A stretch of DNA of 64,000 nt from the human T2T-CHM13v2.0 reference genome, Homo sapiens, in NCBI RefSeq assembly GCF_009914755.1, contig NC_060925.1; one strand, given 5' to 3'. Both the position numbers and the translations under genes were made by a program. Under the pieces are notes generated by a model, which was given only the letters and a program-made list of their open reading frames with translations, ran no database searches and had not been told where the DNA came from. Of the stretch, positions 5,893-60,803 are shown piece by piece; the first letter of the stretch is position 1, and each line of letters begins with the position of its first letter.

Positions 5893-6282
<390 letters not shown>

Positions 6283-10104: not shown

Positions 10105-10146
<42 letters not shown>
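10105..10146 (+). repeat. (GT)21 microsatellite
   Basis: Read directly. Confidence 0.98.
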
Positions 10147-46172: not shown

Positions 46173-49100
46173 CTCTATCTAGAACGAGAACACCACTAGG
46201 ACAGGGATCTTCGTCTGTTTTATTTGCTGCTGTGTCCCCAGTGCCCAGAACTGTGCCTGGCACATAACAGGTGCTTAATCAATGCATGCAGAATGCAGGA
46301 ATGAACGACTTGGCCTCTCTACAAATCATGTTTTCAACCACACGGAGCAATATTACCCAACCCCTTTGTTTTAATCTACTTCGACTGATCATTTTACAGA
46401 TGGGAAAACAGAACTTTGGGAAGTCCAAGTGAGCAGCATTAGTCCTCCAGCCAGTTAGTAGCAGAGCCAGCTCTGGGACACAGGACTACTGACCCACAGG
46501 GCAGGGCTCTTTCTGCTGGACATGCTGAAATGCTCCTCAACAGCTTCTTACCACAAGGTAGCCTGCACCATCAGCTAGGAGATTTTCTCCTTTGGCATTT
46601 GGCAAAAGATTCCCAGCTGCTGTAAGTGCTTTTGGGCTGTGGCTGGGGGTGTCAGGGACTCCTGGGTCCCAAGAAGTGAAGCTGAAGCCGAGATGGGTCC
46701 CAAAGACAGGTCACCAAGCTTACATGTGATATGTCTGGAAAGACACCCAACCCCAACTCAGGTGCGCGGTGAAACCTGCAGCTGTGGTTTGCCTCATCTC
46801 TCCTCCGGCCCTAAGGTGGTCACCAATGTGCCTTGGGAGTGGGGGAAATTATTTGTCAGAACTTGCAAAACAAAAGGCAATTTATTCCTCTGCAGATCCA
46901 GAAACAGATAGAAGGGCGGGAGGAATCATGCATGTAGTTGGTCTCCCTCCTGAAGGTCTCCAGGGTTGGAGAAAGGGCTGAGAGCTGTCCCACAGGCTTA
47001 TCCGGATGGAAGGCAGTCTTATGTCCCACATGTGACACCAAAAGCAGGAATCCCTCATCCCTGTCCTTGGCAGATTCTACAAGTTGAAACACATATAGGA
47101 CAGGCCCACCTCACTCTTCATGATAGCTCCCAGGTATGTTGTATAGTAAATCCTGTGCCTGTAACAATTCAGGGCAATCTCTTTCCTGAGCTGGTCGATT
47201 GTTCTTGATGTCCTCAGCTCCTCGTCCAAACCTCTTAATCCAGGAGCAAATGAGCTGTAAACAACCGCATCACATGGGGCGCAGGAGGAGCTGCTATTGA
47301 AGGAGGAAGTGAGGCTGCAGCAGCTTTGCAAACAGAGGGTCACTGGGGATTGGGGTGGCTGCAGACTCTGATGGGATCCCATAGCATCTGCAGGTGAGGG
47401 TGGCTGCTGATGCCGATGAGACTTGGGGTGATCCACCTGGGGCAGGTCTTGGACAAGTGTGATGCCCTGAGGGGCCATTTGGGCATTTGCCTGAGACTTT
47501 AGGGTGACTGTCCTTTCTCAGTGGATGCAGAAGGATCCAGACAGCCTTGATTCTGTGTCATTGGCATGGATGCAAGTGTTTGGGGAGGACTTGTTGGAGG
47601 AGGAGGAGGAGGATCAGCATCTTTGAATAAATGATACGTTTACAAGGAAAAGCTTACTGTGGGCTCCCCTCAGCCAAGAAGTGAGACTGAACAGAAGGTC
47701 TCTTCTTGGCCCAGAAGTTCTCTAAAGTCCAGAGTCTGCACCTCCTGCTGCAGAGCTGTGTCTGGGAGCTCCATAAGAGTCAGAGCTGTGTCTCCACCAT
47801 CAGTCTGATGATTCCTCAAGACCAGTAAGTATACATGTGCACCGGACCAGCAGCTCCTAGTGGGTGGGTGCTAGATACCCACAGTCTGAAGCGCATCTCC
47901 CTCATCCCTCCAGCAGCAAGGTGAGCCCTTTCTTGCTCTCCAATGGTGATCTCGGACCTTTCTTTCCCCGCAGGGCCCCTTGAGAAAGAGCAGAGTCTTC
48001 CAGGAAGGCAAGGGCAGCCACTGAGTTAGGAACTGGAATTTACTGTGTGACCTTAGGCAAGTCCTTTTCCCTCTCTGGGCCTCAGTGTCCCTCAAACAAA
48101 AACCCAGAGACTTTTCCAGTATGTTAGAAGCATCCTTCCGGTTCTCTCAGCTCCTGCCATGTGCCTTCTGGAGGTAACCTTCTAAGGACTCTGCACCAAC
48201 CACCGCCCTTCACCCTCATGCTATCTCCCTTTCTCAAGGACCCCGGGCCCCAAGGCAGAGCCAGGTGGCATCTTTGCACTTACACTGGCTGACTCTACAC
48301 TAGCTGTTTTGCTCCCCATTCTGCCTTCACAGCATTTCTTGTGGTTGAACTACCAGTCTTGCAGGGAAGCAAAATGAAGAGACCCCAACCCTGCCTGCCA
48401 TCCACTCACTCTCCAAAGTGCAGGGAAACAGCTCCTTTGAAGACCTCAATTTAAACAAGGGAGAGAACAGTTCTGAGATTTTCTTCCCACTCTCTTGGCT
48501 CCATCCCTTATAATGGTTTCGTTCCCAAGCCCCAGATATTCTGGGGAGGGTGAATGGGCAGAGGATGGGGGTGGGCCTGGATGACTCATGCCCTGCAAGG
48601 TTCTGCCAACACTCGGCATCTGGTCCTGCTTCATGCCTCTCCAGGGCAGCCTCGGGCAAGAGGGAGCCCTTGGTGTCAGAATGCAGGGAGAGGGCACTGA
48701 GCACCAAGCTGGCACCTGGGTGGGAGGTGTCCAACACATGCAGCTTCCTTCCCTGTGCAGAGCATCTGCAGCAGGACTCTTCTTGGATGCTCAGAGCCCA
48801 CCATTAACTAGAGACCAGATTTCTGACCAAGGCCATGGAGGCGGCCATGTTGGCTGCACTGAAAACAGCCGGGCTCCGTGACAATGGGCTTCCTGCCCTT
48901 CGTGCAGACCCCACCAGTGGAGGGGTGTTCTTCAGCCTCCTTCACATCAGTGTCCATCAGAGATTCAAAAAAAAAAAGGAAACTACCCAAACTGGTGCCA
49001 TCAAGGCTGTCACTCACTCTCCTCCCTACGAGCCAGCCGCATGTGCGATTTGACACACTGGTAGCATTTCTGCAAATTACACATCATTCTCCCCACTGAA

Positions 49101-56295: not shown

Positions 56296-56985
<690 letters not shown>

Positions 56986-58569
56986 TAATTGTGGAAGCCA
57001 GGTAATGGGTATATGGGTGTTTGCCTTAAAGATTTTTACACTTTCCTGCATGTTGGGAAATGTTCGTAATCAAATGTTGGGGGAAGAAAACATGAAGCTA
57101 TAGAACTAAGCTAGGGCTTGTCTCTGAGCCTCATCTGTCAAATGCAGACAGCACTACCCAGACGGGCAACCCTGGGATCAAACGAGAAGCAGTGAATAAA
57201 GAGGAGCCCATGGGGACGTGGCAGGAAGCAACTTGATTCTTCTAAGCAAGCGGGGCCCCACCTCCTCATTTGGATCTCAGCTTACATGTGACCTTCTGAG
57301 GCTGCCCTCCCCTGGCCACCCATCTCTTGTAGCCATCACCCTATGTTAATGTCTGCATGGCAATTCTCTCTAGCTGATACATCTCTTCCATCTTCCTTAA
57401 TTTAAGGTATCTGTCTCCTGACAGTAGAATGTGGATTCGAGGAGAAGAGGGACATTGTCTTATTCATGGCAATATCTCTGGCACATAGTGGGGACACAGT
57501 AACTCTTTGTGGAATGAAGGAAGCAATGAGTAGGGCCTGCATATGCTCTATCGTAACCCCTCAAGTGCAGAATTCTGCCACCCAGAATTTGCCTAGTGTT
57601 AACGCCACCCCCATAGAACAGCAGGAAGAGAACTTAGCAATCAGCCATCCCCTGGGCCCCATTTAACAGATGGGGGAGCCAAGGCCCAGAGAGGGAATGC
57701 AAATTTCCCAGCATCCGCTACCAGTGAGTGGCTGAGCAGAGATGGGGCCCAGGTCTTCTAGCTCCCAGCTCAGTGTTCTTCCTCTCCAACTGGCTGCTGG
57801 AGCTCGTGGTAAAGTGCTGATTCCCAGGAACAGCCGGCAGATGGACAGACAGGCTTCACTGGGCTGGGCTGCCCTGATGCCATGTGTTAATTACAGCAGA
57901 CAGGATATGCCAGCCTAGCAATGTTTGCCGGTGCACCCGCCCCTCGTTTAGCAGGTGGGCAGGCTGGCGCAGGCCACTGATCTGCCACGGGTCTGCCGGC
58001 GGCCGATCATGCTGACACAGGCCCAATTGTGCACAGCGCCTGCTAAGTGGGGTGGGCCAGGCAGATTGGCACAGCAAGGGCCCTCTCCGAGGACTGGCAG
58101 CCCCTTCTGACTGCATTGGTCAGCCAGACTGGTACAAGCTGGGCATCTGTCCCATGATGAGCCCTTGCTGGACACAACCTGTCTACACAGGTGTGCCCAC
58201 TGACCGGCAGCCCGGGGGGTGACACGGGGACTGAGTGCTGAGCATGACCATGGGGAGACCTTGTAGGGGGTGTCATAGGCAGGGGATGTGGGCCAGAACC
58301 TCACACACAGGTACACAGATACTGGGATCAGATAGGACTCTGCCATGCTCCCGCCCCCCACACCTGCCCTGTTGACTGGTGGGATCCAAAAATCAAGTTT
58401 GCAGCCCTGAAAGAGGGGCTGGAAAAGTGGTCTCTTCTCTCCAACCCAATGCCTCTTCCCAATTGCCACTAGTTCTACTGTTCACACTGCAGCCAGGGGG
58501 ATTTCTCTGATACCAATGGAGCTGATCACTCTCCTGTTTGAAGCCTTCAATGGCTCTCCATTTCCCTCC

Positions 58570-58810
58570 AATAAAATAATAGTAATAATAATATGCATTA
58601 TTAGCATTTTACAGCTAACAGCACTCAGTTATAGCATGTGTACTATGTGAAAGACACCTTCTAAGCACTTTATAGGGAAGAACCCGATTCATCCTCCACC
58701 CTAGATGGTGGTGCTATTGCTATCCTCATTTTACAGGTAAGGAGACTGAGACAGGGAGATAGGAGATCTCAAATTGACTTGAACCTAGAGGTCTGACTCC
58801 AGAGCCTAAC
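58570..58810 (-). mobile_element. MIR SINE
   Basis: ctaagcacttt..cattttacaggtaaggagactgag..ttgaacctag. Confidence 0.75.
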
Positions 58811-59219
58811 CACTACCAAACCCAGACTCCACATGTGTGAGCCATGACCCTCCCACACCAGGCCCTTCTACACAGCACCCCCAGAACTTGTCCTGAACCC
58901 CCCTCACTCTCTACCCAAGCCTTGCCTTCTTGTTGATGCCTGGGGACCCCCATGATCTCCTCCTGTCTGCCCCGAAGGCTCTGCTTCAACCTCCAAAGCA
59001 GGGCTCAGGGTCCCCTTCTGGGCAGGGCCTGCCCTGGACCCTCCCTGGCAGAGCTCCCCGGCCTGCACGCCAGTGCCATTTCCACTCCATGTCAGCAGCC
59101 TGCTGCTGAGCGAGCACCTGCTGCTAATGTTTCTCTCCTGACCCCAACCTCCACCTCACCCATTCTGTGAACTCCCTGATGACCCCTCTGTCCACAGGCC
59201 TGGCCTGCAGGAGGTGTTT

Positions 59220-59385
59220 ATGAATGAAGAAATGAACGAATGAATGAATGAATGAATGAATGAACAGGTAAGTGAATGAATGAATGAACAGGTGAGTGAA
59301 TGAATGAATGAATGAACAGGCAAGTGAATGAATGAATGAACAGGTGAGTGAATGAATGAATGAATGAACAGGTGAGTGAAAGAAT
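59220..59385 (+). repeat. (GAAT)n L2-tail-type minisatellite with alternating 24/28-bp units, each containing CAG|GTRAGT or CAG|GCAAGT
   Basis: Donor-like motifs start at 59268, 59292, 59320 (GC), 59344 and 59372. Confidence 0.95.
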
Positions 59386-59451
59386 GGGAAGCTGAGGTCA
59401 CTGGGGTTACAGGAATGCACACCGAGGGTGTGTAGTGAAGAGTGGCTTTCT

Positions 59452-59848
<397 letters not shown>

Positions 59849-60803
59849 TTAAACTGGGAAAGAGCCCCCGAGCCCCTCTCTTTAGGGGCAAGCCATGTGA
59901 CCCTGAACCCTGTCTCTAATGCTGGGATTTTCCAAGAGCATACTTGTCGGGAGGCAGGGAGGAGGCAGCGAGGAGCTGGACATGATCACCTGGTCTGGAG
60001 GAGGGACCTGAGTATCTCAGGTGCTGCAGCTGTTCAGCCCTCGGTGAACCTGTGCTTTTAGGGTCTGGATTCCAAGCATCTGGATTTGGGGGTGTGGTGG
60101 AAAGAGGGTGTGCTTCGGAGCAAAGAGCCTGGCTCCCAGCTCTGCGGACTCCTCCCTCTGTGACCCTGGGCATGCCCCTCCCCTCTTTGGGCCTTGGCTT
60201 TGCCTTGTGTAAAATGAGAGCCCTAAATGGGACAGTCAAGGGCGCTCCTGCTCTGAATGACCTCCTAGGGCACCAAGGGTCCAGCAGTTGATGGCCCCCT
60301 GGGAAAGCTGCAAAGAGACCCTGGTGAGGAGTGGGCCTGGGGGTTCCGGACTGTGTATCCGGTTGTGGTTCCTGACCCCTGTGTCCAAATGACCTGATGA
60401 CGCTTGTTAAAAATGCAGAATAAGGACTGCATTCAGAAGTCACTGAGTTGGAACCTCCAGGATGGGCTTCCGGGGAAACTGACATTTTCAAACCCCACCC
60501 CCACTCTGGCCCAGGTGATTCCACTGTGCACTGAAGTTCGAATGTCTGGCATCTATCTGAGGCCCTTTCTATTTCCCCTGCTTCCTGTCTGCTAGCCCCT
60601 AAAGCATGAAGCGGGAGCGGGGTGCTGCATGGGAGGTGGAGAAGGAGGTCTCAGAGCTCCCATGCATGTGTCTGATAGAGTTTGGGGGGCTCAGGTGTTT
60701 GGGTCGTGACTGTGGGCTTTGTATTCGACTGGTGGGTGCCTATCTGGGCATGGGAAATGGCAAGGGAGATACAACCTTACATTTGCCAAAAACTCATCCC
60801 CTT

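What the first reader, a model, noticed from the sequence alone, without database searches (positions are those of the whole stretch)
59125..59385. Candidate TDP-43-gated poison exon with five tandem 5' splice sites in a (GAAU)n repeat
Seen on the IGSF21 sense strand: a pyrimidine-rich run ending tccaCAG (59197; alternative ctgCAG at 59210), then a (GAAT)n array. In it CAG|GTAAGT (59268), CAG|GTGAGT (59292), CAG|GCAAGT (59320), CAG|GTGAGT (59344) and CAG|GTGAGT (59372) recur at alternating 24/28-nt spacing. The shortest exons are 70 or 57 nt. After exon 2 they read [13 protein letters not shown] or [14 protein letters not shown], so every donor choice is a poison outcome. Established: CAG|GTRAGT is the optimal U1 site, and UGAAUG/GAAUG and GUGAGUG-type motifs are TDP-43 ligands. 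Inference: the repeat unit co-amplifies donor and repressor site, forming a copy-number-tunable switch or U1 decoy array that would cut IGSF21 output when TDP-43 is lost. I cannot tell whether this exon is already catalogued.
Basis: partly seen in the sequence, partly recalled or inferred. Interest (0 to 1): 0.85.

Follow-up and report, generated by a model that had tools for sequence, protein, structure and literature searches.

The report
Known TDP-43 cryptic exon in IGSF21
This stretch is a hidden exon in the synapse gene IGSF21 that neurons wrongly splice in when the protein TDP-43 is lost, as in ALS and frontotemporal dementia; it is already in published lists, although its unusual repeat structure is not described there.

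Summary
The core interpretation is also right, but the exon is already catalogued.

- **Identity.** A published RT-qPCR primer for "IGSF21-CE, cryptic exon, intron 2" (eLife 2025) matches window 59203-59222 exactly and uniquely. Published junction tables map onto acceptor 59198 and onto donors 1, 2 and 3.
- **Response to TDP-43 loss.** In TDP-43-depleted human neurons, use of the acceptor rises from PSI 0.002 to 0.33. IGSF21 mRNA falls (log2FC -0.71, -0.39, -0.85), and the RT-qPCR signal for the cryptic exon rises 149-296-fold.
- **Patient tissue.** The junction is seen in 9 of 20 and 12 of 70 brains with TDP-43 pathology, against 0 of 27 and 0 of 130 controls.
- **Not observed.** Donors 4 and 5 and the alternative acceptor 59211 do not appear in the tables I could read.
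- **Added here.** The array is one (GAAT)n microsatellite that stays in 4-nt register, and each donor is three mutated units. A 52-nt higher-order unit is duplicated at 51/52 identity, and the one difference turns donor 3 from GT to GC. The array holds all four CAGGTRAGT sites of the 64-kb window. It is also the window's densest cluster of published TDP-43 iCLIP 6-mers (83 per 200 nt against a mean of 1.5).
- **Still inference.** TDP-43 binding to the array and tuning by copy number were not tested. The only hint of length variation is a 4-nt difference between GRCh37/38 and CHM13.

The parts
6080..6192 (+). IGSF21 exon 2 (113 nt). It is the upstream partner of the cryptic junction and ends on a codon boundary.
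   Evidence: Annotation in the finding. Only one frame is open, and it ends ...VWYR with no leftover bases. hg19 18554392-18554504 in the Leafcutter clusters has the same 113 nt.
59139..59197 (+). 3' splice-site region of the cryptic exon: a pyrimidine-rich run, branch-point-like CTGAT at 59176 and CTCAC at 59155, and the acceptor CAG ending at 59197.
   Evidence: Pyrimidine fraction is 0.70 over -22..-3. The nearest upstream AG is at 59113, giving an AG-free zone of about 83 nt. Branch-point use is inferred and not shown.
59198..59291 (+). Cryptic exon, main published form: acceptor 59198 to donor 2 (CAG|GTGAGT). It is 94 nt in CHM13 and 90 nt in GRCh37/38 coordinates.
   Evidence: hg38 exon 18281081-18281170 in Brown 2022 MAJIQ. 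Junction 18281170-18291866 is listed for 5 knockdown datasets in Brown 2025. hg19 18607664-18618360 is in the eLife Leafcutter cluster. The mapping is anchored by the identity 18607575-18605378 = 2197 = 59198-57001.
59198..59267 (+). Short form of the cryptic exon ending at donor 1 (CAG|GTAAGT, 9/9 match to the U1-complementary consensus). It is 70 nt here and 66 nt in hg19.
   Evidence: Junction hg19 18607640-18618360 is in the eLife Leafcutter cluster. It is absent from the Brown 2022 and Brown 2025 tables.
59198..59319 (+). Long form ending at donor 3 (CAG|GCAAGT, a GC donor in CHM13), 122 nt.
   Evidence: Junction hg38 18281198-18291866 (donor 2 + 28 nt) in Brown 2025. It is listed for Humphrey-i3Cortical only; in tissue, 3 of 20 RiMOD TDP-43 pathology cases against 0 of 27 controls.
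59225..59227 (+). First in-frame stop codon (TGA) after exon 2. It comes ten codons into the cryptic exon, ahead of all five donors.
   Evidence: Translation.
59220..59386 (+). Compound (GAAT)n array carrying the five donor motifs. It is both the exon body and the flank of every donor, and it is the window's densest cluster of TDP-43 iCLIP 6-mers.
   Evidence: From 59222 there are 43 four-nt units in register, 22 of them exact GAAT. Each donor is the triple GAAC-AGGT/AGGC-[GA]AGT. There are 83 motif starts in 59207-59406.
59268..59371 (+). Two 52-nt higher-order copies (59268-59319 and 59320-59371), identical at 51 of 52 positions. The single difference (59269 T, 59321 C) is the +2 base of the donor.
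59344..59377 (+). Donors 4 and 5 (CAG|GTGAGT at 59344 and 59372). They are present in the sequence but are not seen as junctions in any table read.
   Evidence: Sequence. hg38 18281222 and 18281250 give 0 occurrences.
59426..59436 (+). Short canonical GU-type motif (GGTGTGTAGTG) 55 nt past donor 5. It is an alternative or additional TDP-43 site.
   Evidence: GTGTGT at 59428, TGTGTA at 59429.

Best explanation
Window 59198-59291 is the published TDP-43-repressed cryptic exon of IGSF21 intron 2. Minor forms end at 59267 and 59319.

Shown:
- In normal neurons the exon is skipped.
- When TDP-43 leaves the nucleus, exon 2 splices to the acceptor at 59198, and the exon then leaves through one of the tandem donors, mainly donor 2.
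- The reading frame stops after nine new codons.
- IGSF21 mRNA falls by roughly a third to a half.

Inferred:
- TDP-43 normally coats the single-stranded (GAAU)n array. That array fills the exon body and abuts every donor, because each donor is followed directly by GUGAAUGAAU-type sequence. The coating would keep U1 snRNP and exon-definition factors off.
- The array is a mutated microsatellite whose donor-bearing 52-nt unit was duplicated. Each duplication therefore copied a strong 5' splice site together with its likely repressor sites.
- I see no evidence that this is a physiological switch. Most likely it is an accidental, highly spliceable pseudoexon that TDP-43 keeps silent.

My confidence in the identity of the exon is about 0.97. 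My confidence that the (GAAU)n array is the TDP-43 site is about 0.6.
For: Identity:
- The eLife 2025 primer 'IGSF21-CE, cryptic exon, intron 2' matches 59203-59222 exactly; it is the only hit at up to 1 mismatch and none of 100 shuffles matched.
- Its reverse primer lies in exon 3, at window 70118-70137 inside 70042-70163.
- Leafcutter cluster clu_130 (p 8.0e-17, adjusted 2.2e-13) holds the junctions exon 2 -> 59198, donor 1 -> exon 3 and donor 2 -> exon 3.

Response to TDP-43 loss:
- RT-qPCR signal for the cryptic exon rises 296-, 149- and 181-fold, and the canonical transcript falls to 0.55, 0.41 and 0.63.
- MAJIQ PSI goes from 0.002 to 0.33.
- Gene log2FC is -0.71 (adjusted p 1.2e-13), -0.39 (adjusted p 8.6e-10) and -0.85.
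- IGSF21 is down in motor neurons in a single-cell model.

Disease tissue:
- The acceptor junction has at least 2 reads in 9 of 20 TDP-43 pathology cases against 0 of 27 controls (RiMOD), and in 12 of 70 against 0 of 130 (FTD frontal/temporal).

Stop codon:
-.

TDP-43 ligand:
- AAUGAA, GAAUGA, UGAAUG, AUGAAU and GUGAAU are among the top 20 k-mers around intronic TDP-43 iCLIP crosslinks (passage in PMC12586162).
- The AUG12 RNA binds the RNA-binding domain with KD 2.6 nM (passage in PMC13558559).
- The array has 83 such 6-mer starts in 200 nt, against a window mean of 1.5 and a next-best 41 at a (TG)21 run.
- The array is unpaired in the centroid fold.

Origin:
-.
Against: - I saw no CLIP data over this locus, so binding is inferred from motifs alone.
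- AA-type motifs are weaker ligands. AUG12 binds about 50-fold less tightly than (GU)6, and most of the array is pure GAAU without the GUGU core of AUG12.
- Brown 2025 associates AA-containing motifs with late-responsive cryptic exons. IGSF21 has no dose-response class in that table.
- A short canonical GUGUGUA motif at 59428 could be the real site.
- The NMD evidence is mixed. Under UPF1 knockdown the donor-2 junction is 'NMD rescued' but the acceptor junction is 'non-NMD rescued'.
- Donor calls from short reads are partly ambiguous. Donor pairs share 19-23 identical upstream bases, and donors 3 and 5 share 50.
- The Leafcutter test is per cluster, and I found no per-junction effect sizes.
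Confidence: 0.8

Rival explanations
1. The exon is TDP-43-dependent, but the (GAAU)n array is not the repressor site. It only supplies strong donors and purine-rich, enhancer-like exon sequence. Repression would come from another site (the short GUGUGUA motif at 59428, or a more distant element), or indirectly through another factor that changes when TDP-43 is lost.
For: - A canonical YG/YA motif pair sits at 59428-59434, 55 nt past donor 5.
- AUG12-type RNA binds about 50-fold weaker than (GU)6.
- Both early- and late-responsive cryptic exons most often use canonical YG motifs in their bound regions (Brown 2025 passage).
- The exon contains GAAGAA at 59226-59231. That this is a purine-rich splicing-enhancer type is recalled knowledge, not tested here.
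Against: - The 59428 motif is only two overlapping 6-mers, whereas the array has 83.
- AA-type 6-mers are a recognised iCLIP-enriched class.
- The array abuts every donor, which is the position where steric block is simplest.
Confidence: 0.3
2. The array is a copy-number-variable switch or U1 decoy. The number of donor-plus-repressor units differs between people and sets how easily the exon escapes when TDP-43 falls, or the extra donors soak up U1 without splicing.
For: - The 52-nt unit is duplicated at 51/52 identity, so the duplication looks recent.
- The distance from the acceptor to donor 1 is 66 nt in hg19/hg38 coordinates but 70 nt in CHM13. This implies one more GAAT unit in CHM13.
- At least three donors are used.
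Against: - The only length difference seen is one 4-nt unit in the first block, downstream of the stop codon. It changes neither the number of donors nor the coding outcome.
- The spacing between donors 1-2-3 is the same (24, 28) in GRCh37/38 and CHM13.
- I saw no population data.
- Donors 4 and 5 are not seen in use, but nothing shows that they act as decoys.
- No paper among the 25 listed of 149 holding 'IGSF21' and 'repeat' concerns this array, judged by title.
Confidence: 0.12
3. The relevant function is at the DNA level. The array, with its CAGGTG E-boxes, is part of the RefSeq-annotated enhancer 59005-59574, and the splice-site likeness is incidental.
For: - The hub annotation lists an enhancer at 59005-59574.
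- Three CAGGTG motifs lie in the array, at 59289, 59341 and 59369.
Against: - CAGGTG is common: 53 on the + strand and 54 as CACCTG in the window.
- RNA-level use of this exact acceptor and these donors is documented.
- An enhancer role would not exclude the cryptic exon.
Confidence: 0.08

Closest known systems
IGSF21 intron 2 cryptic exon, as catalogued in Brown et al. 2022 (PMC8891020, supplements), Ganssauge et al. 2025 (PMC12289307, primer table and supplements), Brown et al. 2025 preprint (PMC12667841, supplement) and the 2026 review PMC13343711 (tables)
   Same: It is the same object: same acceptor, same donors, same dependence on TDP-43, and the same detection in FTD/ALS cortex.
   Different: In the passages and tables I saw, it appears only as coordinates, a gene name or a primer pair. 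I found no description of the (GAAT)n array, the tandem donors or the 52-nt duplication. The gene name is absent from the main text of Brown 2025, Grima 2025 and O'Neill 2025.
UNC13A cryptic exon
   Same: It is TDP-43-repressed, marked 'NMD rescued' and detected in patient cortex (rows). According to the title of PMC8891020, inclusion is modulated by cis variants (ALS-risk SNPs). That makes it the nearest precedent for a genotype-dependent threshold.
   Different: The modulating variants are SNPs, not repeat length. That the binding region is UG-rich is recalled, not checked here. No tandem array of donors is involved.
STMN2 exon 2a
   Same: It is a neuron-specific TDP-43 cryptic exon and a top marker in the same datasets.
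   Different: It ends in premature polyadenylation and is 'non-NMD rescued' in all three assays. That its TDP-43 site is a GU-rich stretch is recalled.
AA-containing [UG]n class of TDP-43 binding motifs, and the AUG12 RNA of the TDP-43 RRM structure (PDB 4BS2)
   Same: Five of the eight 6-mers of that class tile the array (AAUGAA, GAAUGA, UGAAUG, AUGAAU, GUGAAU). Each donor is followed by GUGAAUGAAU, which equals the last ten bases of AUG12.
   Different: This is a long, nearly pure GAAU repeat, not a UG run interrupted by AA. Binding here is not shown.

Membership tests
TDP-43-repressed cryptic exon | Not an annotated exon, with near-zero inclusion when TDP-43 is normal | tested here: met
   The RefSeq table in the finding has no exon at 59198-59319. 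Control PSI is 0.002. The junction has at least 2 reads in 0 of 27 and 0 of 130 non-TDP-pathology brains.
TDP-43-repressed cryptic exon | Inclusion rises on TDP-43 depletion or nuclear loss | tested here: met
PSI reaches 0.33 on knockdown. The Leafcutter cluster has adjusted p 2.2e-13 and RT-qPCR rises 149-296-fold on mislocalisation. The junction is listed for 5 knockdown datasets.
TDP-43-repressed cryptic exon | Found in tissue with TDP-43 pathology | tested here: met
   9 of 20 (RiMOD) and 12 of 70 (FTD frontal/temporal) cases. It is also listed for ALS motor cortex and FTD cortex in the review tables.
TDP-43-repressed cryptic exon | Cluster of TDP-43 binding motifs in or next to the exon | tested here: met
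   83 iCLIP-class 6-mer starts in 200 nt, all of the AA class, against a window mean of 1.5.
TDP-43-repressed cryptic exon | Direct TDP-43 crosslinking at the site, and direct repression in a minigene | not testable with these tools
   No CLIP tracks are available here, and I found no minigene data for IGSF21 in the passages read.
Poison (NMD-coupled) exon | In-frame stop more than about 50 nt upstream of the last exon junction | tested here: met
   TGA at 59225-59227, after exon 2 of 10 (annotation in the finding).
Poison (NMD-coupled) exon | Isoform rises when NMD is blocked | tested here: inconclusive
   In the UPF1 knockdown column, the donor-2 junction is 'NMD rescued' and the acceptor junction is 'non-NMD rescued'. 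The class boundary is a 5% PSI change.
Poison (NMD-coupled) exon | Regulated use in normal physiology, and conservation | not tested
   No other species' sequence and no tissue atlas were available. Control PSI near zero argues against normal use.
Polymorphic minisatellite (VNTR) | Tandem higher-order units | tested here: met
   Periods of 24, 28 and 52. The two 52-nt copies are identical at 51/52 positions.
Polymorphic minisatellite (VNTR) | Copy number differs between individuals | tested here: inconclusive
   The only evidence is an inferred 4-nt (one GAAT) difference between GRCh37/38 coordinates and CHM13 in the first block. Unit number could not be compared.

The most novel reading that the evidence does not exclude
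The array is a length-polymorphic element in which each 24/28-nt unit adds one strong donor plus a block of AA-type TDP-43 sites. Alleles would then differ in how much TDP-43 loss is needed before IGSF21 is mis-spliced. That would be a repeat-length cis-modifier of loss of an inhibitory-synapse gene in ALS/FTD. It would also be a natural test bed for condensation-independent (AA-motif) TDP-43 repression acting directly at 5' splice sites.
Probability: 0.12. Interest if true: 0.6.

Novelty: already known. Interest (0 to 1): 0.3.

Why it matters
IgSF21 is a postsynaptic organiser of inhibitory synapses that works through neurexin-2alpha (title and abstract of PMC5581337). Its loss through this cryptic exon is therefore one plausible route from TDP-43 pathology to synaptic dysfunction. 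The junction is also a specific tissue marker, with 0 of 157 controls positive in the two cohorts read. That much is already in the literature.

This analysis adds the anatomy. The exon and its splice donors are built from a mutated (GAAT)n microsatellite, and that microsatellite is itself made of a recognised but weaker class of TDP-43 ligand. If binding is confirmed, the locus would be an unusually clean case of TDP-43 sitting directly on tandem 5' splice sites through AA-type motifs. It would also be a place where repeat length could matter.

The finding further shows that a sequence-only reading can recover a real disease-relevant cryptic exon.

Tried and rejected
- **Rfam scan of 58400-60200.** Nothing lies in the array. 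The only hits are sub-threshold Alu-derived SRP and miRNA-like matches at 59452-59740.
- **RNA fold of 59150-59440.** z = -1.76, and 9 of 200 shuffles fold as well. The array is unpaired in the centroid, so I dropped a structure-based explanation.
- **Dispersed repeat family.** The 25-mer unit has 6 hits at up to 1 mismatch in CHM13. Four are here and two are short single sites with a broken donor. The 18-mer of donor plus GAATGAATG has 4 hits, 3 here and 1 single-copy on contig 8. This idea is rejected. Plain (GAAT)8 is common, with 664 overlapping hits.
- **Alternative acceptor 59211.** The expected hg38 coordinate has 0 occurrences in the Brown 2025 table, and it is absent from the Leafcutter cluster.
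- **Ma 2022 supplements.** 0 occurrences of IGSF21 in the 12 of 14 files searched.
- **Paper search for IGSF21 with VNTR or tandem-repeat terms.** I set min_terms badly, so it returned papers without IGSF21 and is uninformative. The repeat search listed 25 of 149 papers, none about this array by title.

Full report
**1. Observation**

The sequence is as described.
- A pyrimidine-rich stretch ends in tccaCAG at 59197, and a second ctgCAG ends at 59210.
- A (GAAT)n array follows. In it, CAG|GTAAGT (59268), CAG|GTGAGT (59292), CAG|GCAAGT (59320), CAG|GTGAGT (59344) and CAG|GTGAGT (59372) recur at 24/28/24/28 nt.
- Tandem Repeats Finder gives periods of 52 (3.2 copies, 91% matches), 28, 24 and 4 over 59220-59386.
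- Exon 2 (6080-6192) is open in only one frame, which ends on a codon boundary. After exon 2 the candidate exon reads [13 protein letters not shown] (TGA 59225-59227), or [14 protein letters not shown] from 59211. Every phase meets a stop within 16 codons.

The feature stands out from the background.
- All 4 CAGGTRAGT 9-mers on the + strand of the 64-kb window are in the array.
- Of the 7 GT donors matching CAGGTAAGT at 8/9 or better in the intronic part of the window, 4 are in the array.
- The acceptor is moderate: pyrimidine fraction 0.70 over -22..-3. It has branch-point-like CTGAT at 59176 and no AG for 83 nt upstream.
- With that acceptor quality as the threshold, 15 of the 19 acceptor-donor pairings of 30-300 nt in the intron end at array donors, 4 of them starting at 59198. 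Only four pairings lie elsewhere.

**2. What it is**

The exon is already published.
- The RT-qPCR primer table of Ganssauge et al., eLife 2025 (PMC12289307; passages and supplements read) lists 'IGSF21-CE, cryptic exon, intron 2'.
- Its forward primer matches 59203-59222 exactly and uniquely.
- Its reverse primer is not in the window. It lies in the same genome at window-equivalent 70118-70137, inside exon 3 (70042-70163, 122 nt).

That paper's Leafcutter output (hg19) has an IGSF21 cluster with p 8.0e-17 (adjusted 2.2e-13). Its junctions are 18554504-18605235, 18554504-18607575, 18554504-18618360, 18605378-18607575, 18605378-18618360, 18607640-18618360 and 18607664-18618360.

The coordinates map onto the window as follows.
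- The neighbouring cluster gives exon 2 as 18554392-18554504, which is 113 nt as in the window. The convention is therefore last exon base to first exon base.
- The exon ending at 18605378 corresponds to the RefSeq alternative exon ending at 57001.
- 18607575 - 18605378 = 2197 = 59198 - 57001, so the cryptic acceptor is 59198.
- The two donors are 24 nt apart, as donors 1 and 2 are here.

Brown et al. 2022 (PMC8891020, supplements) has the same junction in hg38 (18228010-18281081).
- It is flagged as a cryptic novel acceptor, with PSI 0.002 in control and 0.33 in TDP-43 knockdown i3 cortical neurons.
- The exon is drawn as 18281081-18281170, which ends at donor 2.
- The annotated junction into exon 3 falls from 0.998 to 0.746.
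- The gene has log2FC -0.71, adjusted p 1.2e-13.

The Brown et al. 2025 preprint (PMC12667841, supplement media-2.csv and text passages) lists three junctions.
- The acceptor junction is listed for five knockdown datasets. It has at least 2 reads in 9 of 20 TDP-43 pathology brains against 0 of 27 others (RiMOD), and in 12 of 70 against 0 of 130 (FTD frontal/temporal).
- The donor-2 junction is listed for the same five datasets (3 of 20 against 0 of 27; 1 of 70 against 0 of 130).
- A junction 28 nt further on is donor 3, the GC donor. It is listed for one dataset, with 3 of 20 against 0 of 27.

Further published evidence:
- eLife RT-qPCR shows the cryptic amplicon up 296-, 149- and 181-fold and the canonical transcript at 0.55, 0.41 and 0.63.
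- DESeq2 gives log2FC -0.39 (adjusted p 8.6e-10) and -0.85 in a second dataset.
- A 2026 review lists IGSF21 among cryptic-exon genes in ALS motor cortex and FTD cortex.
- A 2026 preprint reports IGSF21 down in motor neurons after TDP-43 mislocalisation.

**3. What was not seen**

- Donors 4 and 5 (expected hg38 18281222 and 18281250) have no occurrence in the Brown 2025 table, and neither does donor 1 (18281146).
- Donors 1 and 3 do not occur in the Brown 2022 files.
- The second acceptor (59211, expected 18281094) occurs nowhere.
- Ma et al. 2022 supplements hold no IGSF21 in the 12 of 14 files searched.
- The gene name is absent from the main texts of Brown 2025, Grima 2025 and O'Neill 2025.
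- Supplements of bioRxiv-only preprints were closed and may hold more.
- Short reads cannot cleanly tell the donors apart. Donor pairs share 19-23 identical bases upstream of the junction, and donors 3 and 5 share 50. The published split between donors should be read with that in mind.

**4. Anatomy added here**

- From 59222 the array runs in an unbroken 4-nt register for 43 units, 22 of them exact GAAT.
- Each donor is three mutated units, GAAC-AGGT-[G/A]AGT.
- The 52-nt blocks 59268-59319 and 59320-59371 are identical at 51 of 52 positions. The one difference (59269 T, 59321 C) is the +2 base that makes donor 3 a GC donor.
- So a plain microsatellite acquired a donor-like 12-mer by point mutation, and that 12-mer was then copied by higher-order duplication.
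- Plain (GAAT)8 is common in this genome: 664 overlapping hits, against 20 for the reversed control.
- The donor-bearing form is not common. CAGGTRAGTGAATGAATG occurs 4 times, 3 of them here.
- The distance from the acceptor to donor 1 is 66 nt in hg19/hg38 coordinates and 70 nt here, while the donor spacings are equal. CHM13 probably carries one more GAAT in the first block.

**5. How it most likely works**

Shown:
- Inclusion depends on TDP-43 loss.
- A stop follows after nine codons.
- The mRNA falls.

Inferred: TDP-43 binds the array itself.
- The 6-mers AAUGAA, GAAUGA, UGAAUG, AUGAAU and GUGAAU belong to the 'AA-containing [UG]n' class among the top 20 k-mers at intronic TDP-43 iCLIP crosslinks (methods passage of PMC12586162).
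- The array has 83 such starts in 200 nt, against a window mean of 1.5. The next-best region is 41, at a (TG)21 run.
- Each donor is followed by GUGAAUGAAU, the last ten bases of the AUG12 RNA used for the TDP-43 RRM structure. AUG12 binds at 2.6 nM, about 50-fold weaker than (GU)6 (PMC13558559 passage).
- The array is unpaired in the centroid fold.
- TDP-43 on these sites would cover both the exon body and the U1 landing sites.

Against this reading:
- I saw no crosslink data.
- A short canonical GUGUGUA motif sits at 59428.
- Brown 2025 links AA motifs to late-responsive events.
- The NMD evidence is mixed, with the donor-2 junction 'NMD rescued' and the acceptor junction 'non-NMD rescued' under UPF1 knockdown.

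**6. Comparison and novelty**

This is a member of the TDP-43 cryptic-exon class. More precisely, it is the very exon already listed since 2022, so the novelty class is 'already known'.

I did not find the repeat anatomy or the tandem-donor architecture in print. This rests on searches, which cover main texts only, and on the passages I read. The idea that repeat length tunes the exon is untested.

The nearest precedent for a genotype-dependent threshold is UNC13A, where risk SNPs drive mis-splicing (title of PMC8891020).

**7. Verdict**

- The extension (tunable switch or decoy) is unproven, at about 0.12.
- Interest is 0.3. It is low because the exon is catalogued, and not zero because the architecture gives a clean, testable case of AA-motif repression at tandem donors within a length-variable repeat.

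Noticed in passing
window 56858-57001 (+): A 144-nt exon made from an antisense Alu (acceptor ttttttgtag|, donor CAG|gtaatg). It is open in phase 0 for 48 codons, so it could insert in frame between exons 2 and 3. Its junctions (hg19 18605235/18605378) are in the same Leafcutter cluster, including one that joins it to the cryptic exon. RefSeq's alternative exon 56973-57001 shares its donor. Its coordinates do not occur in the Brown 2025 table.
   Followed up: partly
window 10105-10146 (+): A (TG)21 run on the sense strand of intron 2, about 3.9 kb past exon 2. It is a canonical high-affinity TDP-43 ligand and the window's second-densest motif cluster (41 starts per 200 nt). I did not examine it for nearby cryptic splice sites.
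   Followed up: no
window 47074-47133 (+): Another good-looking pseudoexon: 60 nt, acceptor pyrimidine fraction 0.80, donor 8/9 or better. It has no TDP-43 motif cluster, and I did not look for it in the published tables.
   Followed up: no
window 59448-59764 (+): A sense-strand Alu lies 60 nt downstream of the array. It gives sub-threshold Rfam hits to SRP RNA and to Alu-derived miRNA families (mir-1268, mir-1285, mir-3135).
   Followed up: no
intron 2, exon 2 to cryptic exon and cryptic exon to exon 3: By coordinate arithmetic, CHM13 has 65 nt less than hg19/hg38 between exon 2 and the cryptic acceptor (53006 against 53071). It has 55 nt more between donor 2 and exon 3 (10751 against 10696). 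I did not locate the indels responsible.
   Followed up: partly
Brown 2025 supplement media-2.csv (PMC12667841): Four of the 15 IGSF21 rows are junctions other than the three identified here. They could be a further IGSF21 cryptic event.
   Followed up: partly
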